A stretch of DNA of 64,000 bases from a phage, in sequence record PZ445498.1; one strand, written 5' to 3'. Below, one piece after another: positions 28,966 to 64,000 of this stretch. The notes below the pieces were generated by a model. That model ran no database searches and was not told the DNA's origin. It saw only the letters and a list, made by a program, of their open reading frames with translations. The first letter of the stretch is position 1. Each line of letters starts with the position of its first letter. The position numbers were made by a program, and so were the translations under genes.

Positions 28966-28992
28966 TTTTGTCTCTCATCAATTTATGTATAT

Positions 28993-29022
28993 ATTATACA
29001 TTAAATCGGGAGGATTTGACAA
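28993..29022 (-). promoter_or_regulatory. early sigma70-type promoter (minus strand)
   Basis: Reverse complement gives TTGTCA-N18-TATAAT followed by ATAAATTGATGAGAG leader. Confidence 0.6.
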
Positions 29023-29093
29023 GTACAATTTTTATTTTTCTGCTTCGGACTTTCTTATCAATCCGAAACTTTCTCTCTCAAATTTATGTGTAT

Positions 29094-29122
29094 ATTATAC
29101 AATAATTATGAGCAGTTGCCAA
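29094..29122 (-). promoter_or_regulatory. early sigma70-type promoter (minus strand)
   Basis: Reverse complement gives TTGGCA-N17-TATAAT followed by ACACATAAATTTGAGAGAG leader. Confidence 0.55.
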
Positions 29123-30458
29123 ATGCAATTTTAGCTAATTGTACTGCTTTCTCCGGAGTCATAGTAATAGTTTTCCATGCATTATTGCGATACACGGCCA
29201 TACGTCCAGAAGCCTGTCTTAAACCAGTACCTCCTTTCATAATTAAATCTACAACAATCGGATCTAGTTTTCCGTCAACAATACGTTGAACGCGACCTGC
29301 TAGCTGTTCTATGAGAGATTCATTATTAATGAGACTTCCCATTATTAAACAAGATAGCTCGTTAAGAGAAATACCTTCTGAGAAGATACTCTGAGCTGCT
29401 GCAAGTACACAAGGTCCGCCCTCCGCTACATCTTTCTGGATTCTCAATCGATCATCCAAAGGAGTTGCACCTATAATCTCATAGGTTGTAACACCACGTT
29501 GTGCGAGAGCTTCTAGTATTGTTTGAATTAGTTCTGTTCTATCACTTACAAAGAGAACCTTATGCCCCATAGACACATATAAATGAGCTAGATTTATAAT
29601 AGTCTCTCGATATTCAGGATGGTTATACACATCGTTAGCACGTAATGCCCACGGTACGTTCTGGTTTCCTGATAACTCAACAGGCACGGAGTACCTATGG
29701 ATTGTGGGTGGAACAGTGTTATTGACAGGCGGACTAAAGATCTTATATCCAAAGAAATCTTTGAACATAACTTGTAGGCCATCTTTACGTTTTAACGTAC
29801 CCGATAAACCAATCTTGTAGCGAGCACACGAGATCTCTAAGAAATTAGTGAAAGTTGTAGCCACACAGTGGTGAACTTCATCAACTATAACAGTACCGAA
29901 CACCTTAGAAAGATTATTCGCATGTTTATTCACGGTTTGTATATTACTGACCACGATTGGTGGATCAATATTATACTTTCCAGAACCTATAATACCAGGC
30001 TCGAATCCAAACCATTTACGAACTTCTGCAGCCCACATTTCCCGTATGGATGTGTTGGTGCAGATTACCAGAGTTTTCTGGCCAAACTTATATGCAAGAG
30101 CTAAAGCTAGGATAGTTTTACCAAATCCGGGCTTACCATTGATAATACAAGTATCATCACACTCTTCATATATAGGGAGTTGATCTTCTTCACGCAGCTT
30201 GAACTGAGGTTCTGGTATTTTTACCGGAGCTAACGTGCGTTTATCAACTAATTCGTATTTTACTCCCTTAGCATCTAGCAAATCCAGACGCGTAATGGGA
30301 ATCCACTTAATCTCTTTAGCAACAACACCACTATTCTTATACATAATAGGGTATTTACTAGTCATTGTCTCGATGTGGTAAGTGGTTTGTTTACTACAAT
30401 AATCCCAGAGTTCATCATCGGGCTTGAAATAGGCTTTATTAGATATAACAACCTTCAT
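29106..30458 (-). CDS. SF2 DNA helicase (D10-like)
   Basis: 450 aa; Walker A GKPGFGKT, DExH box VIVDEVHH, helicase C-terminal motifs. Confidence 0.8.
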   Translation of the reverse strand: MKVVISNKAYFKPDDELWDYCSKQTTYHIETMTSKYPIMYKNSGVVAKEIKWIPITRLDLLDAKGVKYELVDKRTLAPVKIPEPQFKLREEDQLPIYEECDDTCIINGKPGFGKTILALALAYKFGQKTLVICTNTSIREMWAAEVRKWFGFEPGIIGSGKYNIDPPIVVSNIQTVNKHANNLSKVFGTVIVDEVHHCVATTFTNFLEISCARYKIGLSGTLKRKDGLQVMFKDFFGYKIFSPPVNNTVPPTIHRYSVPVELSGNQNVPWALRANDVYNHPEYRETIINLAHLYVSMGHKVLFVSDRTELIQTILEALAQRGVTTYEIIGATPLDDRLRIQKDVAEGGPCVLAAAQSIFSEGISLNELSCLIMGSLINNESLIEQLAGRVQRIVDGKLDPIVVDLIMKGGTGLRQASGRMAVYRNNAWKTITMTPEKAVQLAKIAFGNCS

Positions 30459-33512: not shown

Positions 33513-33573
33513 ATTTAGTCTCCTTTTGGTAAGTAAGTATAACTTCAGTGTTTCTTCTCTAACTTACCAATAT

Positions 33574-33603
33574 ATTATACCAAATCTTTGAGCGATTCGG
33601 CAA
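33574..33603 (-). promoter_or_regulatory. candidate promoter for DNA polymerase gene
   Basis: Reverse complement TTGCCG-N18-TATAAT; followed by a 9-bp inverted repeat TTGGTAAGT / ACTTACCAA in the leader. Confidence 0.4.
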
Positions 33604-34465
33604 CTAAAATTTCAATACGTTGAGCCAACATATCGATCTCTTCTTTATTTAAGTCACCTGGGTCTTTGCCTTCTGGAAGAAGGAAGTTACCAACTACAGG
33701 TGTTAAACGCGTTTTTGTACGAATTAGCTTCGCTAGTGCTTGTGCGGCTTTATTACCAGAGGCATCATTATCTAATAGGATAACTACTACTCTTACTCCA
33801 GCAATAATGTAAGGACTGAACTTATCGGCAATGTTATCAGATGTAAACTGATGTGTACCAAAGCAGCAAGAAGCATAATCCACACCGTTATCTTCTAGAT
33901 TTAACATATCAAAGATACCTTCAACTAGAACAAGAACTGGTGTATTATATCGTACAGGAAAAATCGGTGGTGAAACTTGTTTTGGTTTTACTAAGTATTT
34001 AGGAGGGGCAGAACTGTTTATAGAACGTCCCAGGAATAGGATATTGCGTCCAACAGCATCTGTTATTGGGAATACAATTCTGCCTTCCCAGTCTGCTTGA
34101 TGTTGGAAAGCAAAATATTTCTTCAAGGTCTTAGAACTGATACCTCGGAAATCACCTTCGAAAAGGTAAGCAGATTCAGGAATTGCAAGATTCGTAGATC
34201 CATTCCTAATCTCTGAAATCTTTTTACGTACTTGTGACAATCTTGGGGACTGTCTGTACTGAGTCTCATTAAAATAATGGTAAATGCTCGGTATTCCTCT
34301 ACCGAAGCCACAGCTCAAGCAATGCATAATACCTGATTCAGGATCAATACGCAAGCTTGGGTGTTTATCATCATGATCTGGATTGAGACAACAGATGAGG
34401 ATGTCCCCACCTGTGTCTTTGTATTCAATGCCTTTCAGATCAAGTAGTTCTGTTATTCTACTCAT
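33575..34465 (-). CDS. DNA primase (zinc-binding + TOPRIM)
   Basis: 296 aa; N-terminal zinc-finger C-x(n)-H...C-x2-C (CCLNPDHDDKHPSLRIDPESGIMHCLSC) and TOPRIM-like acidic motifs. Confidence 0.8.
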   Translation of the reverse strand: MSRITELLDLKGIEYKDTGGDILICCLNPDHDDKHPSLRIDPESGIMHCLSCGFGRGIPSIYHYFNETQYRQSPRLSQVRKKISEIRNGSTNLAIPESAYLFEGDFRGISSKTLKKYFAFQHQADWEGRIVFPITDAVGRNILFLGRSINSSAPPKYLVKPKQVSPPIFPVRYNTPVLVLVEGIFDMLNLEDNGVDYASCCFGTHQFTSDNIADKFSPYIIAGVRVVVILLDNDASGNKAAQALAKLIRTKTRLTPVVGNFLLPEGKDPGDLNKEEIDMLAQRIEILVAESLKDLV

Positions 34466-37559: not shown

Positions 37560-37586
37560 ATTTCTTCCTTATCAATTTATATAAAT

Positions 37587-37615
37587 ATTATAGCAAGTAT
37601 TTAAGCATTTAGCAA
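37587..37615 (-). promoter_or_regulatory. early promoter inside the ligase inter-subunit spacer
   Basis: Reverse complement TTGCTA-N17-TATAAT followed by ATTTATATAAATTGATAAGGAAG leader. Confidence 0.6.
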
Positions 37616-37679
37616 CTACAATTTTAACTAACTTTGCTTACCCTCGCCATAACTTTCTATCCCTCAACTGAATGATAAT

Positions 37680-38733: not shown

Positions 38734-38941
38734 CTGCGATTTCCATTTTGAGTTCTTTACTATACTGCGCAGCCATACCAGCTAAATCAGCAGCTTCTTT
38801 CAACCACGCATCTTTGTACGCTTTCTGGTTTGGAGTGCCGATACTATCCTGGTAATTGATTCTTGCTATGGAGAGCAAATTAAGTTTTGCTTGAATCTTT
38901 GGAAGTGTTATTATCATTGCCATAATTGATCCTCTCATCAA
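38723..38941 (-). CDS. hypothetical protein
   Basis: 72-aa ORF directly downstream of an early promoter. Confidence 0.35.
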   Translation of the reverse strand: MMRGSIMAMIITLPKIQAKLNLLSIARINYQDSIGTPNQKAYKDAWLKEAADLAGMAAQYSKELKMEIADDE

Positions 38942-38952
38942 TTTATATAAAT

Positions 38953-38981
38953 ATTATATATGAAAACTGAGTCGAAAGCAA
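38953..38981 (-). promoter_or_regulatory. early sigma70-type promoter (minus strand)
   Basis: Reverse complement TTGCTT-N17-TATAAT followed by ATTTATATAAATTGATGAGAG. Confidence 0.65.
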
Positions 38982-38992
38982 GTACATTTATA

Positions 38993-40111: not shown

Positions 40112-40169
40112 ATTTTTCGATTTCCTTAATTAAGAATTAAACAGAATAGTTCTTTCAAACTATGAGAAT

Positions 40170-40198
40170 ATTATATCAAGAATTACAGGATTAAGCAA
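40170..40198 (-). promoter_or_regulatory. early sigma70-type promoter (minus strand)
   Basis: Reverse complement TTGCTT-N17-TATAAT. Confidence 0.6.
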
Positions 40199-40215
40199 CT
40201 GAAATTTTTCAGTAG

Positions 40216-41164: not shown

Positions 41165-41196
41165 ATTTAAAACTCCTCTCTCAAATTTATGAATCT

Positions 41197-41225
41197 ATTA
41201 TACAGAAAATTTTTGCAAGATGCAA
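41197..41225 (-). promoter_or_regulatory. early sigma70-type promoter (minus strand)
   Basis: Reverse complement TTGCAT-N17-TATAAT followed by AGATTCATAAATTTGAGAGAGGAG. Confidence 0.55.
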
Positions 41226-41233
41226 GTAAATTT

Positions 41234-41467
41234 TTAGGATTCTTTGAGCAAAGAAGCAAGCTCAGCATAGACTTTATCTAACTCAAAGCCAATGCGAAGA
41301 GACACACGAGTCTTCCGTTGTTTAAGTAACCATATGGAGACGTTAGGGATGCCAGCGAGACGAGGTGGTACAACCCTACATAGTTTCTCCGCGGTATCGT
41401 AAACAGAAGTTTTACGTTCTTTTACTGGAAACTTCCTTGTTTCCCACTTTTTATTCTTCACTGTCAT
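41234..41467 (-). CDS. hypothetical protein
   Basis: Start placed at internal ATG (MTVKNKK) preceded by GGGAG. Confidence 0.35.
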   Translation of the reverse strand: MTVKNKKWETRKFPVKERKTSVYDTAEKLCRVVPPRLAGIPNVSIWLLKQRKTRVSLRIGFELDKVYAELASLLKES

Positions 41468-44240
41468 TTCTAGCTCCCAATTCAGCAAGAGCTTCCTCAT
41501 GCATCTGACGTTCTTCATCTGTCATAAACTTAACTGGAATCGGCATACATTCGATCTTACAGTAAGTTCTGTACCAGTCCACAATCTTTTCCGTATCCAG
41601 ATCTTTACCGATACCCATCATGCCAAGATACATACGGGCATATTTTGGGTTAGCGCTCTGACCTGTCTTAAGGAAGAAATCCTTCTTCTTATTCTTAAGA
41701 GCTTCGATAAACGGTTTGATTGTTACATTTGAACACTTCTTGATATCTTCCCAAAACATGTCGTGCATCTTATGGAAGAATGCAGCTCTATCGTTTGGTT
41801 TATCCTTGATATACTGTTCAACGTGTTCCACTGTTACATCTTTAATAGAATCCAGATGATAATAGCGAACCAGAAGTAACTTGGCTTCATAGGCATCTGC
41901 ATGACGTGGTGCGCAATATTCAGGAGTTGAGTACAAAATAGCTTTGATTCGCTCTTCTGTATACTCTTTGCCTGCACCTTCGATAGTTCCCCAGCTTTCA
42001 CTGAAAATATCAATAGTTGCACCCTGATCAAGTAGATAATAACGCAAAGTACTAGTATAGTTTCTAGATTCCAGCTCACGACGACGTGCGTACAGTTGTT
42101 GGGCTAACTCAATCCAACCTTCGTCAATATTATACTGCTCGGAACCGGCAGAAAATCCACTCGTAGATTTATCAATAAAATAATAAATGTTCTGAGCACC
42201 ACGGTCGCGCCTGATTGCTTGAAAACGCATGTTTGGCGCTTGGTTTGAGGTTCTAGTGATTACGAATACGTTATCAAAATAGTTAAAGTCAACACCACTC
42301 GTTACAGATGGACTACATAATAAACAATCAATCTGTTGATCAATTAGCTCATTAGTTGTATAATCCAGAATACGTCGGATATCTACATCAGACGTAGAGT
42401 TTGAGTGAATTTCTTTAACTAACGCACCAGTATTACGACGTAATGCCATTCCCTTCTCATTCAGTTCATCCGGGCCACAGTCAGATACTAGGATTGATTT
42501 CTCCCCCATCTCTAAAGATGTTTGAAGTGCAACCCAAATACTGGATTCATCAGGGAATTCATAAGCATGAGCTTTCGCCAGCATTTTACGGTGGTGATTA
42601 TAAAATGCGACTGGTTTATCAAAATCAATCAAAGAACCATAGGCTTCAATCGTTTCTGCACTGATATCACCATCGGATAAGATAACAGTTTTAGCAGTAA
42701 TAAGGATATCACGAAGAACCTGAATACATTCACGACGGTTTTTAACAACCGGAGCGAATAACAGATCATTCATTACTGCGTCACATTCATCAATAAAGAT
42801 CGTATCAATCTGACCCACAAAGCTCTTGAACTTATGGATAGAGTGAATAGTTGAAGACATACGATCAATGGCACCACGTTTGAAGTTCAGCATATCAACT
42901 GACTTATCATACTGACCAGCACCGAATTTCTTCGCGTTAGAAGATACAAGTGCCCTAGTATTTGTGATTGCAATAAAGTTTCCTGGAAGAACACCTGCAT
43001 CTAGCCACTTAGTTACTGCGGTAGTTTTACCCGTACCAAGACTTGCCTTAACAAATGTTAAATGTCCTTTTGGTGGTACAATGTTAATTTTCAGGTATGG
43101 AACTTCTGGTGGAGAATCTGTGTCTAGACGTTTTAATGGTACACCTTTTAAGTTTGGTGGAATCTCACGTTTGGAGTTATTTACAAAGGCTTTGAGAGCC
43201 TGCTTACGACCGTTATTAAAGTAATCTTGAATATTACGACTATTATCTTTAGTCGTAATATACTCAGATAAAGCTGGTTTAATCTCACGTTCTAACCACG
43301 TAAAGTCAACACCATCTTCTAACGCTCTGTGATAAAGTTTTGGGATAATACGCAGGTACACTCCATCCTCAGCTTCTTCTAGTTCGCTGATGGTTTCTTC
43401 CACTTTATCAGATGCAGCCTTCTTGCCTTTAATTTGATCAAGTAAGGAGTAGAACTCTTCTTTAAACTCACCTCTAGTTGTCTCAAAGTCAACTAGGTTA
43501 TTAGGTAGATTCACCTTCGAACCCTTAACATACACAAGGCGTGGTTTATTCTCCGCTTTAAACGGATCGACTATACCATCATCAAATAAGGGATCTGCGA
43601 AATAGTGAAGCTGAACAGAAGAATAATAAGCTAAGTCAGCAATATCAAAGCCATACTTTTGCTTACTACTGTCATTGATAGATGTAAATAAGAACTTTAA
43701 CTGTCCCTGCGTTACCTTGACATTAGATTCTAGCATTAAGTGCATTCGGATACCTGGTTTTAATCCAGCCGAAGACGATGCATGGGCAATAAACCCTGCA
43801 TCAAGAGGAAACATATCCTCACTAATACTATTCAACATCTTAATAATATGACGTGCCATGCCAACAAGATTAAACTTGTCATAGCCACCAGTATCTACAA
43901 TACCATCCACGTCCATAGCAATAATATGACTAGGATTGGATACGTTAAAGTTTCCCCTGGTACGACGCACATTATCTTTTGGAGCTAAACATTTACCACG
44001 AATAGCTACAATATGCGGGTCTTTGGTAAGACGACGCATGATAGGTAACATTTCAGCAAGGTTTTGCGGGTCAAGTTCTTCAAGTACATCAAATTTGAAG
44101 GGCATGGAAGCTGGTTTACCTTCTGGATGCTCTTTAGAGAATCGCTTTGCAAAGGTGTAATCTTCCACTTTGATCTCTTTCCAGATGCCAGTGGCTTTAT
44201 CTCTGGAAAATCCTGCGTGACCTTGTAGGATTGAGAACAC
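41451..44240 (-). CDS. replication origin-binding-like protein / P-loop NTPase
   Basis: Walker A LGTGKTT and Walker B IFIDECD; start placed at GTG 44240 with AGGAG Shine-Dalgarno rather than the upstream ATG at 44363. Confidence 0.55.
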   Translation of the reverse strand: MFSILQGHAGFSRDKATGIWKEIKVEDYTFAKRFSKEHPEGKPASMPFKFDVLEELDPQNLAEMLPIMRRLTKDPHIVAIRGKCLAPKDNVRRTRGNFNVSNPSHIIAMDVDGIVDTGGYDKFNLVGMARHIIKMLNSISEDMFPLDAGFIAHASSSAGLKPGIRMHLMLESNVKVTQGQLKFLFTSINDSSKQKYGFDIADLAYYSSVQLHYFADPLFDDGIVDPFKAENKPRLVYVKGSKVNLPNNLVDFETTRGEFKEEFYSLLDQIKGKKAASDKVEETISELEEAEDGVYLRIIPKLYHRALEDGVDFTWLEREIKPALSEYITTKDNSRNIQDYFNNGRKQALKAFVNNSKREIPPNLKGVPLKRLDTDSPPEVPYLKINIVPPKGHLTFVKASLGTGKTTAVTKWLDAGVLPGNFIAITNTRALVSSNAKKFGAGQYDKSVDMLNFKRGAIDRMSSTIHSIHKFKSFVGQIDTIFIDECDAVMNDLLFAPVVKNRRECIQVLRDILITAKTVILSDGDISAETIEAYGSLIDFDKPVAFYNHHRKMLAKAHAYEFPDESSIWVALQTSLEMGEKSILVSDCGPDELNEKGMALRRNTGALVKEIHSNSTSDVDIRRILDYTTNELIDQQIDCLLCSPSVTSGVDFNYFDNVFVITRTSNQAPNMRFQAIRRDRGAQNIYYFIDKSTSGFSAGSEQYNIDEGWIELAQQLYARRRELESRNYTSTLRYYLLDQGATIDIFSESWGTIEGAGKEYTEERIKAILYSTPEYCAPRHADAYEAKLLLVRYYHLDSIKDVTVEHVEQYIKDKPNDRAAFFHKMHDMFWEDIKKCSNVTIKPFIEALKNKKKDFFLKTGQSANPKYARMYLGMMGIGKDLDTEKIVDWYRTYCKIECMPIPVKFMTDEERQMHEEALAELGARNDSEE

Positions 44241-44736
44241 AACAATACTCCTATGTTGGTTATTCGGATATCTTTCTTTAGGACTATTCAAAAGAATAGA
44301 ACAACTATTACTACCATTTACACAAACATTAATCATCATCAAGCAGTATGAATAAGTTATCATACCTCAGTGCTGCGCTCTCTTAACTCTTATCCAGATC
44401 AGAACCTAGGTCATTGGCCGCTAAGCCGATTCTGATTGCCCTCACTATCCTATTGGTAGGTGGCTACTGGACGTGTCACCATTCGCTGCTCTTTTCGTTC
44501 GCACCCCCATATAAAGCTCTGCCTATATAACGAGCTAAATATGCACGGTTTGGATTTACCTTTCCGAATTCAGGGTACGCAGATCACTTAATTGATAATT
44601 AACTAATGCAGTATAAACACTAGTAATAGTTAAAACAACCCTTAATGGGGCAGCCTAACTGTTCCGTATTGCGGATTGTAAACAAGAAAAATTAGCAAAA
44701 TCAATTTTTACTAATGTCTCTCAATTCAATATAAAT

Positions 44737-44765
44737 ATTATATCAAGATTTTGAGCATCCTGCAA
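44737..44765 (-). promoter_or_regulatory. early promoter about 490 nt upstream of the origin-binding-like gene
   Basis: Reverse complement TTGCAG-N17-TATAAT followed by ATTTATATTGAATTGAGAGA leader. Confidence 0.55.
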
Positions 44766-44856
44766 GTAAAATTTTTCCGAAGGTGCTATCAGTGTCTTTG
44801 AGCACAGAGAAAACCGAGCCAAAATGACTCGGTAATCAGGATTGGGCTAACGAAAA

Positions 44857-48020: not shown

Positions 48021-48048
48021 AGCTTTCTCCTCTCAAATTTATAAATCA

Positions 48049-48077
48049 ATTATACATAAGTTTTAGCTCGAAAGCAA
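48049..48077 (-). promoter_or_regulatory. early sigma70-type promoter (minus strand)
   Basis: Reverse complement TTGCTT-N17-TATAAT followed by TGATTTATAAATTTGAGAGGAG. Confidence 0.65.
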
Positions 48078-48085
48078 ATAAAATA

Positions 48086-48118
48086 AAAGCCAGATCGACT
48101 AGCGACCTGGCTGATTCA
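48086..48118 (-). terminator. intrinsic terminator after nrdD
   Basis: AGCCAG...CTGGCT hairpin followed by TTTTATTTTATTT on the minus strand. Confidence 0.6.
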
Positions 48119-50020: not shown

Positions 50021-50049
50021 CTATTATAACTCATTAGAAGGCGGATGTC
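50021..50049 (-). promoter_or_regulatory. consensus sigma70 promoter for nrdD
   Basis: Reverse complement TTGACA-N17-TATAAT; AGGAGG Shine-Dalgarno before the ATG. Confidence 0.7.
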
Positions 50050-50102
50050 AACAATATTTTACTATAAAGTTCTGTAACATGATCTGAGTCAAAAAATTTT
50101 AT

Positions 50103-50131: not shown

Positions 50132-50242
50132 CACGCGCCCGTGTACGCGATATAAAATGATTATCTAGTACCATACATCTCCCAATAAAAGCAAGCAAAT
50201 TTTTTATTTAAATGCAATATCATAGGCTTATTTAAAATTGTA

Positions 50243-50271
50243 GTTGCTTTCTCCCGTATATATTGGTATAA
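50243..50271 (+). promoter_or_regulatory. early promoter upstream of phoH
   Basis: TTGCTT-N17-TATAAT. Confidence 0.6.
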
Positions 50272-50345
50272 TATATTTGTAAGTTGATAAACAAGATCTT
50301 TTTGTTGATCCTCTGTTAGCGAAGTACACTATAGGAGTGTTATTT

Positions 50346-53808: not shown

Positions 53809-53836
53809 GGAGATCTTCGGGTCTCCTTTTTCTTTG
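53809..53836 (+). terminator. intrinsic terminator after nrdA
   Basis: GGAGATC-TTCG-GGTCTCC hairpin followed by TTTTTCTTT. Confidence 0.8.
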
Positions 53837-53845
53837 AAATTTTAC

Positions 53846-53874
53846 TTGCTAATCGCTACCAGATTTGCTATAAT
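53846..53874 (+). promoter_or_regulatory. early promoter driving the HNH endonuclease gene
   Basis: TTGCTA-N17-TATAAT. Confidence 0.65.
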
Positions 53875-53898
53875 ATCTCTATATTAAGGAGATATACT

Positions 53899-57304: not shown

Positions 57305-57310
57305 TTCAAA

Positions 57311-57335
57311 TAGCCCTTCGGGGCTATTATATTTA
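57311..57335 (+). terminator. intrinsic terminator
   Basis: AGCCC-TTCG-GGGCT hairpin followed by ATTATATTT. Confidence 0.6.
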
Positions 57336-57343
57336 AATTTCAT

Positions 57344-57372
57344 TTGCTTACTGAGTGAAATTCAAATATAAT
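57344..57372 (+). promoter_or_regulatory. early promoter
   Basis: TTGCTT-N17-TATAAT. Confidence 0.65.
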
Positions 57373-57402
57373 ATACTTCTAATTTGACAGAAGGATTTAA
57401 TA

Positions 57403-57981: not shown

Positions 57982-57983
57982 AT

Positions 57984-58253
57984 ATGTCTATTCTTTTATC
58001 TGCTCTAGAAGCAAAACAAAATACTATTGCTAGCATTAAAAAGGAAGTAATTGACCTAGAATCACTTATTGCCGTAGAGATTGACAAAGCTATTAAAGAT
58101 AAAGAATTTAATTGTCACATCCAGGGATTAACTGAATACTCAGAAAACGCTAGAAATAGCGTCATGCAAAAACTTAGCAAACTAGGTTATGTTGTGGAAG
58201 CTAAGTATGAGCAACGTGAAGGTTTTTGGCTTGAAATTGATTGGAGCAAATAA
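57984..58253 (+). CDS. hypothetical protein
   Basis: 89-aa ORF. Confidence 0.4.
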   Translation: MSILLSALEAKQNTIASIKKEVIDLESLIAVEIDKAIKDKEFNCHIQGLTEYSENARNSVMQKLSKLGYVVEAKYEQREGFWLEIDWSK

Positions 58254-58729: not shown

Positions 58730-58749
58730 TAAATAATTTAAAAATTCAC

Positions 58750-58778
58750 TTGCTTAAAGCCCTCGAATTTAGTATAAT
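58750..58778 (+). promoter_or_regulatory. early promoter
   Basis: TTGCTT-N17-TATAAT. Confidence 0.65.
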
Positions 58779-58805
58779 ATTCGTATTGAAAGTGAGGAGG
58801 GCTTT

Positions 58806-59084
58806 ATGCGAATTTACAACTCAAATTCATTAGGATTTAAACCTTTGAGAAAACGCGCACAATCTCCGCGTCAGATCAGAAAGGCAAATATTGGTGAGCC
58901 AGAAACTAGGCTTCCACCACCTCCGGAGCAGCGTCTAGTTTATCTAGATGAAGAATTAGCCGAAAGGGAACGCAAAGCTCAAGAAGAAATTGAGCGCAAG
59001 AAACTGTGTACTGCTCCTGCATATAACAAGGGTGGTTATCAGTACGTTTCCAGTGAGGAACAAGCTAAGATGATCGGCAGATAA
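58806..59084 (+). CDS. hypothetical protein
   Basis: 92-aa ORF with GAGGAGG Shine-Dalgarno. Confidence 0.4.
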   Translation: MRIYNSNSLGFKPLRKRAQSPRQIRKANIGEPETRLPPPPEQRLVYLDEELAERERKAQEEIERKKLCTAPAYNKGGYQYVSSEEQAKMIGR

Positions 59085-59100
59085 TTTTTAAAAAATTCAT

Positions 59101-59129
59101 TTGCTAAACGCTTCAAAATTTCGTATAAT
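59101..59129 (+). promoter_or_regulatory. early promoter
   Basis: TTGCTA-N17-TATAAT followed by ATATCTCATAAATTGATCAACAAAAAGGAAA. Confidence 0.65.
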
Positions 59130-59167
59130 ATATCTCATAAATTGATCAACAAAAAGGAAAACAAATA

Positions 59168-59683
59168 ATGGCTAAGCAGAAAAACGCAAAAACTCAGGCA
59201 GCTCCGGCAGTTAAAACTTTCGCTCAGACCGAAGCCAATCGTAAGGCTCGTCTGGAACGTCATCTGCGTAAGCATCCTACTGATGCTCAGGCTCAGACTG
59301 CCCTGAAGTCTGCGGCTCCGGTTCGCCAGAAGCCGAAGGCCAAGAACTCTACTCGCGCAACTGCTAAGCAGGTTGTGTTCATCAAGGGTGAAGGTCATAA
59401 GTCTGTACCTGTAACTCTGAGCTTTAACGGCGGTGCTGAGATGTTCGCCCGCAACGGTATGGCTCTGAAAGACTACGAAAAAGCAGTCAATCAGAAGCGT
59501 AAGCCAATGGCTGACGTAATGCGTGAATCCCGTGGACAGTTTGGCTCCGTTAAACCGAATATTTTCGGTGTAGAGTATAGCCGTGACAACGTTCGCGCTC
59601 TGTGCTACGGTATCGGTATTAAGTTTACTGGTGCTTCTGATCGTAAATCCGCTAAACCTACTCGTAAGCGTAAAGCGAAGTAA
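59168..59683 (+). CDS. highly basic, highly expressed hypothetical protein
   Basis: 171 aa; Lys/Arg-rich; strongly optimal codon usage. Confidence 0.45.
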   Translation: MAKQKNAKTQAAPAVKTFAQTEANRKARLERHLRKHPTDAQAQTALKSAAPVRQKPKAKNSTRATAKQVVFIKGEGHKSVPVTLSFNGGAEMFARNGMALKDYEKAVNQKRKPMADVMRESRGQFGSVKPNIFGVEYSRDNVRALCYGIGIKFTGASDRKSAKPTRKRKAK

Positions 59684-59744
59684 TGATTGAGGGGGCGAAA
59701 GCCCCATATACTAACTCTTTCTCTGACTAATCAAGGATATTTTT

Positions 59745-59960
59745 ATGTTCTCTAAGAAACCACGTTCCGTTACTGAAATCGTTGCTTCCTTTACCACTAT
59801 TACTGATGAACTTCAAGCTCGTATTGAAGCTGACCAGAAAACTGCTGCTGATATTCAGAAACAGCAGGAAGAACTCGCTCTGAAACTGGCTGAAACCAAT
59901 AAGAGTGAAAAATCTGCTCAAACTATTAAGGAAAATATCCTTAAACTGCTGGGCAAGTAA
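59745..59960 (+). CDS. hypothetical protein
   Basis: 71-aa ORF. Confidence 0.4.
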   Translation: MFSKKPRSVTEIVASFTTITDELQARIEADQKTAADIQKQQEELALKLAETNKSEKSAQTIKENILKLLGK

Positions 59961-60001
59961 TTTAAATCAGGGGGCGAAAGCCCCTCTTATTTGGAGAAAC
60001 T

Positions 60002-60214
60002 ATGCGTAACTTCGTTGCAAAGAATGATTTTAACCGTGCTAGCACTCACAAGTCTGCTAGAGACTACACTCGTCTTTCTAAACATGAGCTTCTAGAAGAG
60101 ATCATGGAAGAAAACTGGGATGTTAACGAAAATGGAACAGACCTGTTTGAAGAAGAGGAACTTCCTCTGAAAGACCCCAAACAGTGGGAGTCTATTAAAG
60201 AGACAGCTCTTTAA
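60002..60214 (+). CDS. hypothetical protein
   Basis: 70-aa ORF with GGAG Shine-Dalgarno. Confidence 0.4.
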   Translation: MRNFVAKNDFNRASTHKSARDYTRLSKHELLEEIMEENWDVNENGTDLFEEEELPLKDPKQWESIKETAL

Positions 60215-60244
60215 TAGTTTTCTACAACAATAAAGGACATAATT

Positions 60245-60946
60245 ATGAAATTCAAGCCCTTTGGTATGCTGGACATTGAATCTCTAGGTACTCCAGGAAA
60301 TTGCGGTACTACTCATATTGCAATGCCTTCTTTCGCTTTTGTAGCTATGCACGGAATTGATAAAGATCCTGATCTGGTATTCGTTACTCTAGACGTTCAA
60401 GATCAGCTTAATGCGGGTGCTAAGGTAACTGCCTCTACTATTGCATTCTGGATGGATCAAGCTAAAAACAGTCCATCTGCGCTCCATATTATGGAGGCTC
60501 TGAACGGTCGCAATCCAAAACTGATTGCCTTCCGTGATGGTAAGCATCACTGCACTAATGATGTAGGCTCCAATTACGCTGCCTTCTCTATGGCTCAGAA
60601 CATTATGGAATTGTCTCTAGGAGATAATGCTCTGTATTACGGCAATGGCCCAGAGTTTGATATGACTATCTACTCTGCAAATACGTTCCATGCCGGAACC
60701 CATGAAGAAATAGTTCCGTGGAAATTCTGGAACTTAGGTAACGTTCGATCTTTCCGTAATCAGTGGATGCAAGCTGGTTATACTTATAAAGATCTAGAAG
60801 CCGAAGGTGCTAGCTGGGCAAAAGCTAAAATGGAAAAGATGGACACCATTCGTTATGGAATCTATCCTGTGAAGCATGATCCAGCATTTGATGCTTTAGT
60901 TGAAAGTTATTGTGTAGCCGTCATGATCGAAAAAATCAAAATTTGA
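60245..60946 (+). CDS. DEDDh-type 3'-5' exonuclease-like protein
   Basis: 233 aa; Exo I motif LDIESLG and Exo III-like H-x4-D (KHDPAFDALV). Confidence 0.45.
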   Translation: MKFKPFGMLDIESLGTPGNCGTTHIAMPSFAFVAMHGIDKDPDLVFVTLDVQDQLNAGAKVTASTIAFWMDQAKNSPSALHIMEALNGRNPKLIAFRDGKHHCTNDVGSNYAAFSMAQNIMELSLGDNALYYGNGPEFDMTIYSANTFHAGTHEEIVPWKFWNLGNVRSFRNQWMQAGYTYKDLEAEGASWAKAKMEKMDTIRYGIYPVKHDPAFDALVESYCVAVMIEKIKI

Positions 60947-60947
60947 T

Positions 60948-60976
60948 TTGCTTTCAGCTCCAAAATTCTGTATAAT
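60948..60976 (+). promoter_or_regulatory. early promoter
   Basis: TTGCTTTCAG...TTCTGTATAAT then ATATTCATAAATTTGAGAGAACAA; matches the architecture I recall for T5 early promoters. Confidence 0.7.
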
Positions 60977-61016
60977 ATATTCATAAATTTGAGAGAACAA
61001 CAAAAGGAAAATAATT

Positions 61017-61199
61017 ATGCCAGTATCTAAAAACGTCCGTAAAAATGGTAAAGTAGCAAAACGTAACCTGGGTCTGCGTCGTATGGCTGAGCGTCAGTCC
61101 GGCATCCAGAAAATCTTTAATGTGCTGAATCGCGCCAACCCGAATATTGATAACAGTTCTGATACTGTTCTGCGCACTCTGCTGGCAATCGGTCTGTAA
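61017..61199 (+). CDS. hypothetical protein
   Basis: 60-aa ORF. Confidence 0.4.
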   Translation: MPVSKNVRKNGKVAKRNLGLRRMAERQSGIQKIFNVLNRANPNIDNSSDTVLRTLLAIGL

Positions 61200-61251
61200 T
61201 AGACTGTTTTTTAAAACAAATTCAAATCTCAAACTTCATATAAGGAAGCAA

Positions 61252-61893
61252 ATGATGACTACTCGTATCTCTAAAACTCGTGCTCTGGCAACTATCAAGT
61301 CTCTGGAATCTAAAATCCGTAAAGCTACTGAACAACAGCTTTTGATTGCTGTTGGTGAAGGTAAAGACAAGAATCAAGTTGTCGTTGGTGCTGCAATCGA
61401 AGTAGATGCTCTGTCTACTCGTATTAAAACTGATTTCCAGTCTCTGCTGGATATGATGACCCAGCGTGATCAGCTGAAAGCAGCGCTGATCAAGAGCAAT
61501 GCTGAAACTGTTGTAGAGATCGGTTCCCGCTCTATGACTGTTGCGGAAGCAATCGAAGCTAAGCGTTCTATGGAACTCAAAGCTCAGTTGCTGGCTAACA
61601 TGCGTAAGCAGTTCCATGCTGCTACTGTTAAGTTTAACACTCAGAAGGCTCAGTTTGATGCCAAGTATGAGCGTTTGCAGGATACCATGGCTACCCGCGA
61701 CAAGAAGACTTCCGAGGATGAAGTTAAGATGCAGCTTAACCTGCTGGAACTCAAGAACACTCCATTCCTGATCGATCCGCTGGAGCTGGAAAAGCTGATC
61801 AAGCAACACGACGAAGAATACCAGGACTTTGCAACCAACGTTGACTTTGTTCTGTCTGAGTCCAACGCCTCTACTTTTATCGAAGTAGAGTAA
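61252..61893 (+). CDS. hypothetical protein (highly expressed)
   Basis: Start at ATG 61252 after AAGGAAG; optimal codon usage. Confidence 0.45.
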   Translation: MMTTRISKTRALATIKSLESKIRKATEQQLLIAVGEGKDKNQVVVGAAIEVDALSTRIKTDFQSLLDMMTQRDQLKAALIKSNAETVVEIGSRSMTVAEAIEAKRSMELKAQLLANMRKQFHAATVKFNTQKAQFDAKYERLQDTMATRDKKTSEDEVKMQLNLLELKNTPFLIDPLELEKLIKQHDEEYQDFATNVDFVLSESNASTFIEVE

Positions 61894-62273
61894 TAATTTA
61901 AAAGACTAGTAAATCGGTAGACGAAAGCCCAAGCATCTTACCTCGCAGCAGCGGTTGAAATACGAGGTTAAATAAGACCGCTGACCATACTATAAAGTAT
62001 AATCTATTGGAGATTATGTTTATTACACCAGCCTCTTAAGCTGAACTGTAAAAACGGTCGTTGGTAGTACCAACACAACTTCAAAGATCAACGCTCAAGT
62101 ATGAAAGCTGAAAAGTTAAAAGCACTCAAACTTCTAACCTTCTAAAGCTAAAAGATGCAAAGTATTCGTTGATGATTCAAACCCTAGATCAAAGGTACAT
62201 GGCTCATAAGATATGGCCTGTGGCGCCTCTAGGCTGTTTATCGGTTTACTAGTCTCTCAATTTAAAAATGTAT

Positions 62274-62302
62274 TTGCTAATTAGTTTAGTTTTCTATATA
62301 AT
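62274..62302 (+). promoter_or_regulatory. early promoter
   Basis: TTGCTA-N17-TATAAT followed by AAATTGATGAGA. Confidence 0.65.
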
Positions 62303-62332
62303 ATATTTTTAAATTGATGAGACGAGGCTATT

Positions 62333-62650
62333 ATGATTTTTCATATTCTAATTGATGATGTTCGTGACCTACATGGGATGGATATTATCATTCGAACCCC
62401 CGAAGCCGCTATTGAGTTTCTGAATACAACCGATACCACCGGACATTTCGTTTATATGGATAACGATCTGGCTGTAGATGGTATGGAAGGTTATCAAATT
62501 CTTCGTTTACTCCTAAAATTTGGTCAGAGACCCAAGAAAGTGGTACTAGTAACCTCGAACCCAGTAGCTAAAGAGACCATGCGTAATGATCTCTTAGACG
62601 AAGGGTATCAAGAAAGCCCTAATCGTATTGAGTACGATTGGCCGGAGTAA
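62333..62650 (+). CDS. CheY-like receiver-domain-like protein (stand-alone)
   Basis: 105 aa; ILIDDV (acidic pocket), VYMDNDLAVDGMEGYQIL (phospho-acceptor-like D followed by GM.G), VVLVTS (conserved Thr/Ser position). Confidence 0.4.
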   Translation: MIFHILIDDVRDLHGMDIIIRTPEAAIEFLNTTDTTGHFVYMDNDLAVDGMEGYQILRLLLKFGQRPKKVVLVTSNPVAKETMRNDLLDEGYQESPNRIEYDWPE

Positions 62651-62655
62651 ATAAA

Positions 62656-63105
62656 ATGAAGGCAGCTTTGCTTTTAATAGCTGCCCTAACCTATAGCTTC
62701 AATAGTCATGCGACCTACGACTCAAAGCAGATTGATTGCATTGCAAAAAATATCTACTTCGAAGCACGAGGTGAGGGCACTAAAGGAATGATCGCAGTTG
62801 CACAGGTTACTAAAAACCGTGTTAACTCTGGTACTTTTCCTGATTCTTACTGTAAAGTAGTATATCAGTCTAACCAGTTCTCTTGGGTGGCCAAGAGACC
62901 AAAAGTTGATAAAACCGATGAGGCTTGGCAAGTTGCTAAGAATTTAGCTAGAGTGATATACTACGTTGATTTACCACAAGATCCAACACATGGAGCGTTA
63001 TACTTCCATAGTGGTAAAGATAAACCGTACTGGACAAAGAAGTTTAAGAAAACAACGAAGATTCAAGGCCATACGTTTTACAAGCCTGTGGTTAAGAAAA
63101 CTTAA
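62656..63105 (+). CDS. SleB-like cell wall hydrolase with N-terminal signal peptide
   Basis: Start at ATG 62656 (MKAALLLIAALTYSFNSHA signal-like); Hydrolase_2 pattern NIYFEARGE...AVAQVTKNR...GALYFHS. Confidence 0.6.
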   Translation: MKAALLLIAALTYSFNSHATYDSKQIDCIAKNIYFEARGEGTKGMIAVAQVTKNRVNSGTFPDSYCKVVYQSNQFSWVAKRPKVDKTDEAWQVAKNLARVIYYVDLPQDPTHGALYFHSGKDKPYWTKKFKKTTKIQGHTFYKPVVKKT

Positions 63106-63113
63106 AAAATTCG

Positions 63114-63142
63114 ATTGCTTAAAGCCTTAAATTTCTGTATAA
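63114..63142 (+). promoter_or_regulatory. early promoter
   Basis: TTGCTT-N17-TATAAT followed by AACTGTATAAATTGATGAGAGG. Confidence 0.65.
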
Positions 63143-63154
63143 TAACTGTATAAA

Positions 63155-63346
63155 TTGATGAGAGGAAAGCGAACAATGAAAACCTTAGTAATTATTGGTG
63201 TTAACACTCACGGTATTCGTACTACGAAAACAGTTAAAACTACTAACGTTGCTGAAATTACTACAAATCCTAAGAAGTTTGATTTCGCCAAAGTCTCAGC
63301 AGTTATGACAGAACAATCTTTTAACCAAGCACTGGGAATTAAATAA
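63155..63346 (+). CDS. hypothetical protein
   Basis: 63-aa ORF. Confidence 0.4.
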   Translation: MMRGKRTMKTLVIIGVNTHGIRTTKTVKTTNVAEITTNPKKFDFAKVSAVMTEQSFNQALGIK

Positions 63347-63789
63347 TGGAAGAGAATATTCTAGATGTTTTGCGTAGGGCTTTGCAGGAATCCAAGTTTA
63401 ATGGTTCTGATAAAGAAGTAGCTAAAAGCTACCAGACCATAATCGGAGATCTTCAGCGTGTTGATAAAGACTTCATTACTTCTGAACAGTTTGTATCTTA
63501 TCTAAAAGCTCAACTGAAAAGCATTAATCAGACGAAAGCTAAACTTCACGGTCAAGACCTTGATAATTATAGCTTGCAGTCTGCTCAGTATGAATATATA
63601 CTGAACAAATGGTTACAGCAGTATCTGCCGCCTCAGTTATCTGATTCTGAGATTCGCAAATACTTTGCAGAATTAGTTAAGTTGAATCCTGGGATTACAA
63701 AAGGTATGCTGATGAAAGCGATTAAGGAAGAGTTTCCTGGTCGTTACGACGGTGGCATTGCTGCTCAGGTTGCTGGCGAATTTAATTAA
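63346..63789 (+). CDS. GatB/YqeY-domain-like protein
   Basis: 147 aa; C-terminal GITKGMLMKAIKEEFPGRYDGGIAAQVAGEF resembles the YqeY-family C-terminal motif. Confidence 0.45.
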   Translation: MEENILDVLRRALQESKFNGSDKEVAKSYQTIIGDLQRVDKDFITSEQFVSYLKAQLKSINQTKAKLHGQDLDNYSLQSAQYEYILNKWLQQYLPPQLSDSEIRKYFAELVKLNPGITKGMLMKAIKEEFPGRYDGGIAAQVAGEFN

Positions 63790-63797
63790 AAATTGAT

Positions 63798-63826
63798 TTG
63801 CTAAACGCCTCAAAATTCTGTATAAT
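63798..63826 (+). promoter_or_regulatory. early promoter followed by at least 170 nt with no ORF
   Basis: TTGCTA-N17-TATAAT followed by AGATTCATAAATTAGAGAACAG; no start codon with Shine-Dalgarno before the window end. Confidence 0.6.
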
Positions 63827-64000
63827 AGATTCATAAATTAGAGAACAGCGAGCCGATTACGCTGAGTGAGTTTAGTGATTCCTACTAGGATAGCTATTCC
63901 ACTGAATAGAGTCGGTGAGTTTAGAATGATCACCTGTTAGAGTTCCGAGTCCAGTCCGGTATATCCGGCCAAGTGACTAGAGTAACGAATATAGGTTCGA

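What the first reader, a model, noticed from the sequence alone, without database searches (positions are those of the whole stretch)
58750..63826. Family of near-identical early promoters with a conserved transcribed leader
At least ten plus-strand and eight minus-strand sites share TTGCT[T/A]-N17-TATAAT followed by a conserved initial transcribed sequence (...ATTCATAAATTGAGAGA...). Plus-strand examples are at 53846, 57344, 58750, 59101, 60948, 62274, 63114 and 63798. Minus-strand examples are at 28993, 29094, 37587, 38953, 40170, 41197, 44737 and 48049. This matches the architecture I recall for strong T5 early promoters. The conserved downstream block implies selection on the leader itself, for RNA polymerase escape, translation or RNA stability.
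Basis: partly seen in the sequence, partly recalled or inferred. Interest (0 to 1): 0.35.

Follow-up and report, generated by a model that had tools for sequence, protein, structure and literature searches.

The report
T5-type early promoters, already described
The window comes from a T5-like phage, and the repeated motif is its well-known set of strong early promoters for the host RNA polymerase, including the conserved first bases of the transcript, so the finding is real and correctly read but not new.

Summary
TTGCT[T/A]-N17-TATAAT occurs 13 times against 0.10 expected. A conserved downstream block exists: TATAAT-N6-ATAAATT gives 10 hits against 0.44 expected. The quoted string ATTCATAAATTGAGAGA does not occur literally. 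The real forms are ATAAATTTGAGAGA and ATAAATTGATGAGAG.

The window is an EPS7-like phage, 98% identical to EPS7 and TrudiRoth. All 18 sites sit where the T5 reference genome annotates a promoter: P-N25, P-N26, P-K28a, P-H207, P-D/E33, P31A/B and P16-17. The same consensus, including -43 AAAAATT and +1 TAAATT, was published for phage AKFV33 (PMC3326045). The function of the N25 transcribed region in promoter escape has been shown experimentally (PMC12464699).

New here, but incremental:
- Positions +1..+14 change three times more slowly than their flanks between this phage and T5 (6% against 17%, P = 2e-6).
- The block goes with TTGC-type early promoters and not with the pre-early or late ones.
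- The block persists in Klebsiella, Proteus and Vibrio relatives.

Verdict: already known, low interest.

The parts
58740..58798 (+). Early promoter, orthologue of the unnamed T5 promoter at 46337-46411. -35 TTGCTT at 58750, -10 TATAAT at 58773, predicted +1 at 58785. The downstream block is weak here (ATTGAAAGTGAGGA). The leader to the ATG is 21 nt.
59091..59150 (+). Early promoter, orthologue of T5 P-H207. -35 TTGCTA at 59101, -10 at 59124. The discriminator is 7 nt, followed by ATAAATTGATC.
60938..60996 (+). Early promoter, orthologue of the T5 promoter at 44393-44467. -35 at 60948, -10 at 60971, +1 at 60983. The transcribed block is ATAAATTTGAGAGA and the ribosome-binding site lies separately, further downstream.
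62264..62322 (+). Early promoter, orthologue of the T5 promoter at 43067-43141. -35 at 62274, -10 at 62297. The transcribed block is TTAAATTGATGAGA.
63105..63163 (+). The transcribed block is ATAAATTGATGAGA.
63788..63846 (+). Early promoter, orthologue of T5 P16-17. In T5 this promoter drives the stable RNA 'rnaX'. -35 at 63798, -10 at 63821. The block ATAAATTAGAGAAC is present although no ORF was found in the 168 nt before the window ends.
57334..57392 (+). Early promoter, orthologue of the T5 promoter at 46937-47011. -35 at 57344, -10 at 57367. The block is moderate (CTAATTTGACAGAA). It is preceded by the hairpin AGCCCTTCGGGGCT.
53836..53894 (+). Early promoter, orthologue of the T5 promoter at 50061-50135. 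-35 at 53846, -10 at 53869. The block is weak. It lies directly after the terminator-like hairpin at 53807-53828.
50234..50292 (+). Early promoter, orthologue of the T5 promoter at 53638-53712, upstream of phoH. -35 at 50244, -10 at 50267. The block is GTAAGTTGATAAAC.
48029..48087 (-). Early promoter, orthologue of the T5 promoter at 55708-55782. The -35 to -10 29-mer is at 48049-48077. The block is ATAAATTTGAGAGG. It lies directly after the terminator hairpin at 48112-48088.
44717..44775 (-). Early promoter, orthologue of the T5 promoter at 58999-59073. -35 is TTGCAG. The block is ATTGAATTGAGAGA. A leader of about 367 nt follows before the origin-binding-protein gene.
41177..41235 (-). Orthologue of T5 P-N25, upstream of D2. 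-35 is TTGCAT where T5 has TTGCTT. From -12 to +18 it reads TATAATAGATTCATAAATTTGAGAGAGGAG, identical to N25.
   Evidence: PMC7472727 gives TATAATAGATTCAT as -12..+2 of N25
40150..40208 (-). Orthologue of T5 P-N26, upstream of D3. The block is ATAGTTTGAAAGAA and the leader is 52 nt.
38933..38991 (-). Early promoter, orthologue of the T5 promoter at 65284-65358, upstream of ligA. The block is ATAAATTGATGAGA. It is preceded by a terminator-like hairpin.
37567..37625 (-). Orthologue of T5 P-K28a, upstream of ligB. It is identical to T5 over the 150 nt compared. The block is ATAAATTGATAAGG.
33554..33613 (-). Early promoter upstream of the DNA polymerase gene, orthologue of the T5 promoter at 70987-71061. 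-35 is TTGCCG and the spacer is 18 nt. The block is GTAAGTTAGAGAAG.
29074..29132 (-). Orthologue of T5 P31A. -35 is TTGGCA. The block is ATAAATTTGAGAGA. No ORF follows directly; a hairpin and then P31B come next.
28973..29031 (-). Orthologue of T5 P31B. -35 is TTGTCA. The block is ATAAATTGATGAGA. The leader to the ATG is 21 nt.

Best explanation
These are the early-class promoters of a T5-like phage (family Demerecviridae). The unmodified host sigma-70 RNA polymerase reads them.

Each is a composite element made of:
- an A/T-rich UP-like block (AAAAATT, about -45..-39);
- a TTGCT -35 element;
- a 17-bp spacer with its own partly conserved GC and AAATT;
- a perfect TATAAT;
- an A/T-rich discriminator (ATATT);
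- a start at the A of ATAAATT(T)GA(T)GAGAG.

Shown here: sequence membership, position-by-position orthology to annotated T5 promoters, and purifying selection on +1..+14.

Taken from the literature for N25 only: the start site, the strength with plain E. coli holoenzyme, and the finding that the native A/T- and purine-rich, C-poor transcribed region lets a very tightly bound polymerase escape quickly.

Inferred for the whole family: the upstream elements maximise polymerase capture. The +1..+7 ATAAATT block is kept because it keeps escape fast. The +8..+16 purine run doubles as, or adjoins, the ribosome-binding site of very short leaders (18-34 nt).
For: Enrichment:
- 13 exact core matches against 0.10 expected.
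- 10 TATAAT-N6-ATAAATT matches against 0.44 expected.

Identity of the window:
- 98% identity to EPS7, TrudiRoth and other T5-like phages.

Orthology:
- All 18 sites map to promoters annotated in T5 NC_005859, including P-N25, P-N26, P-K28a, P-H207, P-D/E33, P31A/B and P16-17.

Selection, from substitutions between the window and T5:
- -10: 0/108.
- -35: 4/108.
- +1..+14: 15/252.
- Spacer: 50/306.
- +15..+58: 138/792.
- Fisher P = 2e-6 for +1..+14 against +15..+58.

Class specificity in T5:
- The block is present in 28/38 early-region promoters.
- It is present in 0/3 pre-early promoters.
- It is present in 1/5 late-region promoters; that one drives llp, an early-expressed lipoprotein.
- It accompanies 24/27 TTGC-type -35 elements against 1/7 TTGA-type (P = 4e-4).

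Not merely a ribosome-binding site:
- The block is present where no ORF follows or the ribosome-binding site is elsewhere (63821, 29099, 44742, 60971).
- It is present at T5 promoters of rnaX, rna2H and tRNAs.

Deep conservation:
- TTGC-N17-TATAAT sites in Klebsiella, Proteus and Vibrio Demerecviridae keep +1 ATAAA.T.

Literature:
- The same consensus was published for AKFV33 (PMC3326045).
- The ATATT discriminator is reported in all known T5 early promoters, with -12..+2 of N25 given as TATAATAGATTCAT (PMC7472727).
- Replacing the N25 transcribed region lowers productive RNA about 10-fold and slows escape (PMC12464699).
Against: - No transcription data exist for this phage. Start sites are inferred from N25 by sequence identity.
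- The escape rationale has been tested only on N25 and is extrapolated to the family.
- Two members (53869, 58773) lack a good block yet are conserved as promoters, so the block is not obligatory.
- The classic papers (Gentz & Bujard 1985; Kammerer et al. 1986) could not be read here. They are cited through later papers and from my own memory.
Confidence: 0.9

Rival explanations
1. The conserved discriminator plus transcribed block (-6..+14) is mainly a class-specific regulatory target. A phage factor would act there to time or shut off early transcription. Candidates are the RNA-polymerase-binding gpT5.026, or D5, which is implicated in early shut-off. Intrinsic polymerase kinetics would then be secondary. 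This can coexist with the main explanation.
For: - The block is confined to the early class and absent from pre-early and late promoters in T5.
- It is linked to a particular -35 type.
- Klimuk et al. propose that the shared ATATT discriminator underlies the class-specific effect of gpT5.026. That protein weakens polymerase binding to the -12..+2 N25 oligonucleotide about 8-fold (PMC7472727).
- The block is conserved across hosts as distant as Vibrio.
Against: - N25-type promoters are extremely strong with plain E. coli holoenzyme and in uninfected cells (the basis of T5-promoter expression vectors; my own knowledge).
- The effect of the transcribed region is reproduced in vitro without phage proteins (PMC12464699).
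- The gpT5.026 knockout only modulates transcript levels (PMC7472727).
- No factor that binds +1..+14 is known.
Confidence: 0.2
2. The block is selected at the RNA level. It would act as a 5' leader that boosts translation, through an A/U-rich ribosomal protein S1 or enhancer site plus a GAGAGG Shine-Dalgarno sequence, or it would protect the mRNA 5' end.
For: - Leaders are very short (18-34 nt).
- In many members GAGAGG/GAGGAG lies 6-9 nt before the start codon (41202, 48054, 38958, 63138, 28998).
- +1..+20 is 46% A and 6% C.
Against: - ATAAATT and often GAGAG are kept where no ORF follows or where the ribosome-binding site is separate (63821, 29099, 44742, 60971).
- They are also kept at T5 promoters for rnaX, rna2H and tRNA genes.
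- Predicted structure in +1..+45 is neither more nor less than in controls.
- The distance from the block to the start codon varies from 18 nt to several hundred.
Confidence: 0.2
3. The similarity only reflects common descent of a promoter cassette that was copied around the genome, with no selection on the transcribed part.
For: Family members resemble each other beyond the canonical hexamers, including in the spacer.
Against: - Conservation is position-specific, with uninformative columns interspersed, and it stops abruptly at about +16.
- Between orthologues the block changes 3 times more slowly than spacer or downstream sequence.
- The block survives in phages whose DNA polymerase is only 52-56% identical.
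Confidence: 0.04
4. TAAATT at +2..+7 is a -10-like element that makes sigma-70 pause the polymerase shortly after the start. Some lambdoid and E. coli promoters do this.
For: From sequence only: TAAATT matches TATAAT at 4 of 6 positions, including the critical A2 and T6 (consensus).
Against: - This was not tested here.
- Published N25 work describes escape at about +11 and abortive products of 2-10 nt. It does not mention a sigma-dependent pause (PMC12464699).
Confidence: 0.05

Closest known systems
Bacteriophage T5 early promoters P-N25, P-N26, P-K28a, P-H207, P-D/E33, P31A/B and P16-17 (annotated in NC_005859; Gentz & Bujard 1985, cited from memory and through PMC7472727)
   Same: They occupy the same genomic positions relative to orthologous genes. 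The architecture is the same: UP-like AAAAATT, TTGCT, 17-bp spacer, TATAAT, ATATT discriminator, +1 ATAAATT(T)GAGAG. The N25 orthologue is identical from -12 to +18, and the K28a orthologue is identical over 150 nt.
   Different: The phage belongs to a different genus (EPS7-like), with about 12-17% divergence in flanking sequence. Some -35 hexamers differ: N25 has TTGCTT where the window has TTGCAT, and P31B has TTGCTA where the window has TTGTCA. No experimental data exist for this phage.
Promoter consensus reported for T5-like phage AKFV33 (Niu et al. 2012, PMC3326045)
   Same: The published description is TTGCTw, TATAATA, a 17-18 bp spacer, AAAAATT at -43 and TAAATT at +1, for 32 promoters.
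   Different: That paper treats the +1 region only as A/T-rich. It does not report the GA(T)GAGAG extension, class specificity, or substitution-rate evidence.
N25 initial transcribed sequence as a determinant of promoter escape (Kammerer et al. 1986; Hsu laboratory, PMC12464699)
   Same: The conserved block is the N25 transcribed region, AUAAAUUUGAGAGAGGAG. It is C-poor and A/T- and purine-rich, like the family consensus.
   Different: The experiments concern one promoter. That the whole family shares the block and keeps it under purifying selection is a genomic inference made here.
UP-element promoters of E. coli (rrnB P1 type)
   Same: Both have an A/T-rich block upstream of -35 at about -45..-39, which fits the proximal UP subsite. 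[quoted passage not shown]
   Different: rrn promoters have a G+C-rich discriminator and no conserved transcribed block (my own knowledge). Binding of the polymerase alpha subunit was not tested here.

Membership tests
T5-type early sigma-70 promoters (N25 class) | -35 TTGCT(T/A) and -10 TATAAT separated by 17 (rarely 18) bp | tested here: met
   13 exact matches against 0.10 expected. Five further members have one -35 change or an 18-nt spacer.
T5-type early sigma-70 promoters (N25 class) | A/T-rich block around -43 (AAAAATT) | tested here: met
   Columns -45..-39 read A13 A14 A15 A15 w T16 T12 out of 16 sequences. This matches the AKFV33 description (PMC3326045).
T5-type early sigma-70 promoters (N25 class) | A/T-rich discriminator ATATT directly after the -10 (Klimuk et al. 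2020) | tested here: met
   Columns -6..-2 read A15 T12 a9 T13 t9 out of 16 sequences. PMC7472727 states that all known T5 early promoters carry ATATT.
T5-type early sigma-70 promoters (N25 class) | Conserved initial transcribed region beginning ATAAATT | tested here: met
   10 matches against 0.44 expected. 12 of the 18 sites carry it strongly, 4 moderately and 2 weakly.
T5-type early sigma-70 promoters (N25 class) | Positional orthology to mapped or annotated T5 promoters in front of early genes | tested here: met
   The best hit of each site is the syntenic T5 promoter, with alignment scores 42-110 against 48 or less for the next promoter.
T5-type early sigma-70 promoters (N25 class) | Transcription start at the A 7 nt after TATAAT, use by E. 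coli sigma-70 holoenzyme, and early timing in infection | not testable with these tools
   This is inferred only from identity with N25, whose -12..+2 is given as TATAATAGATTCAT in PMC7472727.
UP element (binding site of the RNA polymerase alpha C-terminal domain) | A/T-rich sequence at about -59..-38 that binds the alpha subunit and stimulates transcription | tested here: inconclusive
   Sequence that fits the proximal subsite is present at -45..-39, and there is little conservation upstream of -50. Binding and stimulation are not testable here.
Sigma-70-dependent promoter-proximal pause element | A -10-like hexamer in the early transcribed region that causes a sigma-dependent pause | not tested
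   Only a 4/6 resemblance of TAAATT (+2..+7) to TATAAT was seen. No pause is reported for N25 in PMC12464699.

The most novel reading that the evidence does not exclude
The composite -6..+14 signature (ATATT discriminator plus ATAAATT-GAGAG) may be more than an escape-optimised start. It may be a family-wide class label, conserved from enterobacterial to Vibrio Demerecviridae, through which a phage factor recognises early promoters or early transcripts. That would be the still-unknown mechanism that switches T5-like phages from early to late transcription.
Probability: 0.12. Interest if true: 0.45.

Novelty: already known. Interest (0 to 1): 0.1.

Why it matters
This matters little as a discovery. 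These promoters have been textbook examples since the 1980s, they are the source of the 'T5 promoter' in expression vectors, and they are annotated in the T5 reference genome.

The analysis still has some use:
- It gives a clean promoter map for an EPS7-like genome whose public relatives carry no promoter annotation in the records inspected.
- It shows quantitatively that the first 14 transcribed bases are under purifying selection, are specific to the early class, and are retained in distant relatives on other hosts.
- That supports treating the N25 transcribed region as a general, evolved escape or regulatory module and not a peculiarity of one promoter.

Tried and rejected
- Literal search for the quoted leader ATTCATAAATTGAGAGA: absent.
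- Generic sigma-70 consensus scan: not enriched (45 found against 42.7 expected). Only the family-specific pattern discriminates.
- RNA secondary structure in +1..+45 of the leaders: no difference from random windows or shuffles. A structured-leader idea was dropped.
- Rfam search of the whole window at gathering thresholds: no hit. ARAGORN: no tRNA in the window.
- Reading Gentz & Bujard 1985 and Kammerer et al. 1986: neither paper is held. They are cited through the reference lists and text of PMC7472727 and PMC12464699, and from memory.
- Pure duplication or common descent as the cause of the block: rejected on position-specific conservation and substitution rates.
- Chance: rejected.
- Sigma-dependent pausing by TAAATT: considered from sequence only and not pursued.
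- Two paper-tool calls failed on term syntax, and one terminator scan exceeded the size limit. No information was lost.


Full report

The literal pattern TTGCT[T/A]-N17-TATAAT occurs 13 times in the 64-kb window, 9 on the plus strand and 4 on the minus strand. Dinucleotide-preserving shuffles give a mean of 0.10 and a maximum of 2.

Allowing one mismatch or a 16-18 nt spacer, and then scanning with a position weight matrix, adds five members:
- minus strand: 41197 and 44737 (TTGCA), 29094 (TTGGCA), 28993 (TTGTCA), and 33574-33603 (TTGCCG, 18-nt spacer);
- two atypical plus-strand sites, 50103 (TTGCCA) and 51399 (TTGCAA...TAGAAT), which I do not count in the family.

I count 18 family members, 9 on each strand. 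Six of them lie inside the flagged interval 58750-63826.

The quoted leader ATTCATAAATTGAGAGA does not exist literally. The real block comes in two length variants, ATAAATTTGAGAGA and ATAAATTGATGAGAG. It is strongly non-random:
- TATAAT-N6-ATAAATT at up to 1 mismatch gives 10 hits against 0.44 expected.
- In leave-one-out scoring of +1..+14, 11 of the 18 sites rank at P <= 2e-4 among all window positions. A twelfth site, 59124, matches once its 7-nt discriminator is allowed for.
- Four sites are moderate and two (53869, 58773) are weak.

**2. Anatomy**

Sixteen sites were aligned on the -10 hexamer: 15 with a 17-nt spacer plus the 18-nt-spacer site 33603, which is therefore one column out of register upstream of the -10. 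Information is concentrated at:
- -45..-39 (AAAAwTT);
- -35..-31 (TTGCT);
- -26/-25 (GC);
- -21..-16 (AAawTT);
- -12..-7 (TATAAT, invariant);
- -6..-1 (ATaTtT);
- +1..+14 (ATAAATTgaGAgA).

Uninformative columns lie between these blocks, and nothing is conserved beyond about +16.

The non-template strand of +1..+20 is 46% A, 23% G, 24% T and only 6% C.

Most leaders are very short, 18-34 nt from the predicted +1 to the start codon. In those, the GAGAGG/GAGGAG end of the block lies at ribosome-binding-site distance from the ATG.

Several promoters sit directly after terminator-like hairpins, for example 53807-53828, 48112-48088 and 51350-51377. They therefore restart transcription unit by unit.

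The minus-strand members (28973-48087) and the plus-strand members (50234-63846) diverge from a promoter cluster at about 50000-50290. That matches the change in GC skew there.

**3. What the window is**

The 8-kb segment 56000-64000 is 98-99% identical to EPS7, TrudiRoth, Klebsiella phage 150049 and many Salmonella phages. A further 243 T5-like records match at 80-90%. The window is an EPS7-like member of the Demerecviridae.

**4. Comparison with T5**

The T5 reference record NC_005859 annotates 46 promoters, many by their classical names. Their sequences show the same architecture, including the transcribed block.

All 18 family sites have as their best match the syntenic T5 promoter:

| Window site (-10 start, strand) | T5 promoter |
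|---|---|
| 41202 (-) | P-N25 |
| 40175 (-) | P-N26 |
| 37592 (-) | P-K28a |
| 29099 (-) and 28998 (-) | P31A and P31B |
| 59124 (+) | P-H207 |
| 63138 (+) | P-D/E33 |
| 63821 (+) | P16-17 |

The remaining sites match unnamed annotated T5 promoters.

The N25 orthologue is identical to N25 from -12 to +18. PMC7472727 gives TATAATAGATTCAT as -12..+2 of N25. That fixes +1 at the A of ATAAATT.

**5. Is the transcribed block under selection?**

Substitutions between the window and T5, across the 18 orthologous pairs:

| Region | Substitutions | Rate |
|---|---|---|
| -10 | 0/108 | 0% |
| -35 | 4/108 | 3.7% |
| +1..+14 | 15/252 | 6.0% |
| UP block | 23/270 | 8.5% |
| Discriminator | 11/108 | 10% |
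| Spacer | 50/306 | 16% |
| +15..+58 | 138/792 | 17% |

For +1..+14, Fisher tests give P = 2e-6 against the downstream flank and P = 1e-4 against the spacer. The first 14 transcribed bases therefore change about three times more slowly than their surroundings. That argues against simple common descent of a copied cassette.

**6. Class specificity**

I scored all annotated T5 promoters with the +1..+14 matrix built from the window. The number exceeding the 99.9% genome-wide quantile was:
- 28 of 38 early-region promoters;
- 0 of 3 pre-early promoters;
- 1 of 5 late-region promoters. That one drives the llp lipoprotein gene, which is expressed early (title of Decker et al. 1994, as listed in PMC7472727).

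The block goes with TTGC-type -35 hexamers (24/27) and not with TTGA-type (1/7), P = 4e-4. Examples that lack it:
- the perfect-consensus TTGACA-17-TATAAT promoter at window 50051..50023 on the minus strand, upstream of nrdD;
- the orthologue of late promoter P-G25 at 14439-14467 on the plus strand.

**7. Is it just a ribosome-binding site?**

No. In the window the block is present where no ORF follows or where the ribosome-binding site lies elsewhere:
- 63821, whose T5 orthologue drives the stable RNA rnaX;
- 29099, followed by a hairpin and then the next promoter;
- 44742, with a leader of about 367 nt;
- 60971, with a separate AAGGAA.

In T5, ATAAATT is kept at promoters for rnaX, rna2H and tRNA genes. 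The 3' purine run is less well kept at the tRNA promoters.

The likely split is that +1..+7 acts at the transcription level, while +8..+16 is partly shaped by translation. No signal for or against RNA secondary structure was found in +1..+45.

**8. How deep does it go?**

I fetched the replication-gene regions of four more distant Demerecviridae. Sites were selected only by TTGC-N16-18-TATAAT and then scored with the window matrix:

| Phage | DNA polymerase identity | Sites above the 99.9% quantile |
|---|---|---|
| Klebsiella RCIP0070 | 77% | 8/10 |
| Proteus PM135 | 69% | 2/7 |
| Vibrio Dax | 56% | 6/9 |
| Vibrio D294 | 52% | 3/8 |

All four still show +1 ATAAA.T followed by purines. One example is Vibrio Dax upstream of the D2 homologue: TATAAT aatctc ATAAATTGAAAAGAGGAG.

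**9. Mechanism**

*Shown here.* Family membership, orthology, selection on the block, and class specificity.

*From the literature.*
- N25 is limited by its escape rate.
- Replacing +3..+20 with the 'anti' sequence lowers full-length RNA about 10-fold and lengthens the escape half-life (0.3 min against 11.2 min on supercoiled templates).
- The authors conclude that the native transcribed region evolved to speed escape (PMC12464699, citing Kammerer et al. 1986).
- N25 carries canonical and spacer UP elements (same paper).
- Klimuk et al. note that all known T5 early promoters share the ATATT discriminator. The phage protein gpT5.026 weakens polymerase contacts there and shifts the balance between early and late transcripts (PMC7472727).

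*Inferred.* The family combines maximal polymerase capture (UP block, near-consensus hexamers, A/T-rich discriminator) with an A/T- and purine-rich, C-poor start that keeps escape fast. The same region may also act as the handle for class-specific modulation. These two roles do not exclude each other.

**10. Novelty**

The observation has been published:
- Niu et al. 2012 report for T5-like phage AKFV33 the consensus TTGCTw, TATAATA, a 17-18 bp spacer, AAAAATT at -43 and TAAATT at +1, for 32 promoters (PMC3326045).
- The T5 reference genome annotates the orthologous sites.
- From memory, Gentz & Bujard 1985 already described homologies outside the two hexamers, at about -43 and about +7. I could not read that paper here.

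The verdict is that the finding is real, correctly interpreted and already known, and its interest is low.

**11. Side observations**

The most notable is the non-coding gap 61894-62273.
- It folds far better than shuffles, z = -4.5, with a stem of about 20 bp closing roughly 300 nt.
- It is at least 91% identical in 440 of the 441 T5-like records that match it, and almost none of them annotate it. The surrounding 8 kb is only 80-90% identical in 243 records.
- Its first ~115 alignment columns (about 110 nt) are essentially invariant, apart from a 1-nt offset near the 5' end, in seven phages from two genera. Two base pairs show compensatory changes.
- It has no meaningful Rfam match.

This element deserves its own look.

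Noticed in passing
window 61894-62273 (+), between ORF 61147..61893 and the promoter at 62274: This unannotated non-coding stretch is unusually conserved. Its predicted RNA fold is -100.8 kcal/mol against -74.9 +/- 5.8 for shuffles (z = -4.5). A stem of about 20 bp (61903-61922 pairing with 62236-62256) closes roughly 300 nt. It is at least 91% identical in 440 of the 441 T5-like phage records that match it, and almost none annotate it, while the surrounding 8 kb is only 80-90% identical in 243 records. Its first ~115 alignment columns (about 110 nt) are essentially invariant, apart from a 1-nt offset near the 5' end, in 7 phages from two genera. Two predicted pairs show compensatory changes. 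There is no Rfam match. It could be a structured non-coding RNA or a DNA-level element.
   Followed up: partly
window 14429-14490 (+): This is the orthologue of the T5 late promoter P-G25 (TTGATA-N17-TATAAT). It lacks the early transcribed block. Its leader, ATTGTTATTAAGAGGAGAAATTAACTATG, is almost the 'RBSII' ribosome-binding site of pDS/pQE expression vectors as I remember it.
   Followed up: partly
window 50003-50292, both strands: A divergent promoter cluster lies at the switch of gene orientation and GC skew. It holds a perfect-consensus TTGACA-17-TATAAT on the minus strand (50051..50023, upstream of nrdD), a TTGCCA promoter at 50103 (+), and the family member at 50244 (+). The -10 of the 50103 site is followed by a G+C-rich palindrome (CACGCGCCCGTGTACGCG) in place of the A/T-rich block.
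   Followed up: no
window 44364-44730 (-): A 367-nt untranslated leader lies between the promoter at 44742 and the origin-binding-protein gene (41451..44363). T5 has the same arrangement. Predicted structure is only mildly better than shuffles (z = -2.5).
   Followed up: partly
window 28973-29132 (-): Two tandem family promoters, orthologues of T5 P31A and P31B, lie 101 bp apart. Between them is the hairpin GTTTCGGATTGATAAGAAAGTCCGAAGC and no ORF. Both have non-TTGCT -35 hexamers but excellent transcribed blocks.
   Followed up: no
all family members; columns -45..-39, -21..-16 and +3..+7 of the alignment: Three AnTn tracts (AAAAATT, AAAATT, AAATT) recur with their A-to-T junctions 22-23 bp apart, about two helical turns. 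This may reflect intrinsic DNA curvature or wrapping around the polymerase. At site 62264-62322 the UP block and the start region form an 18-nt, 94% complementary inverted repeat.
   Followed up: no
window 51350-51447 (+): A strong terminator-like hairpin (51350-51377, 12 bp) is followed by a promoter-like site (TTGCAA-N17-TAGAAT, 51399-51427). This site has no annotated T5 counterpart and no transcribed block. It would place the real start of the large ribonucleotide reductase gene at the ATG near 51466, not at 51406.
   Followed up: no
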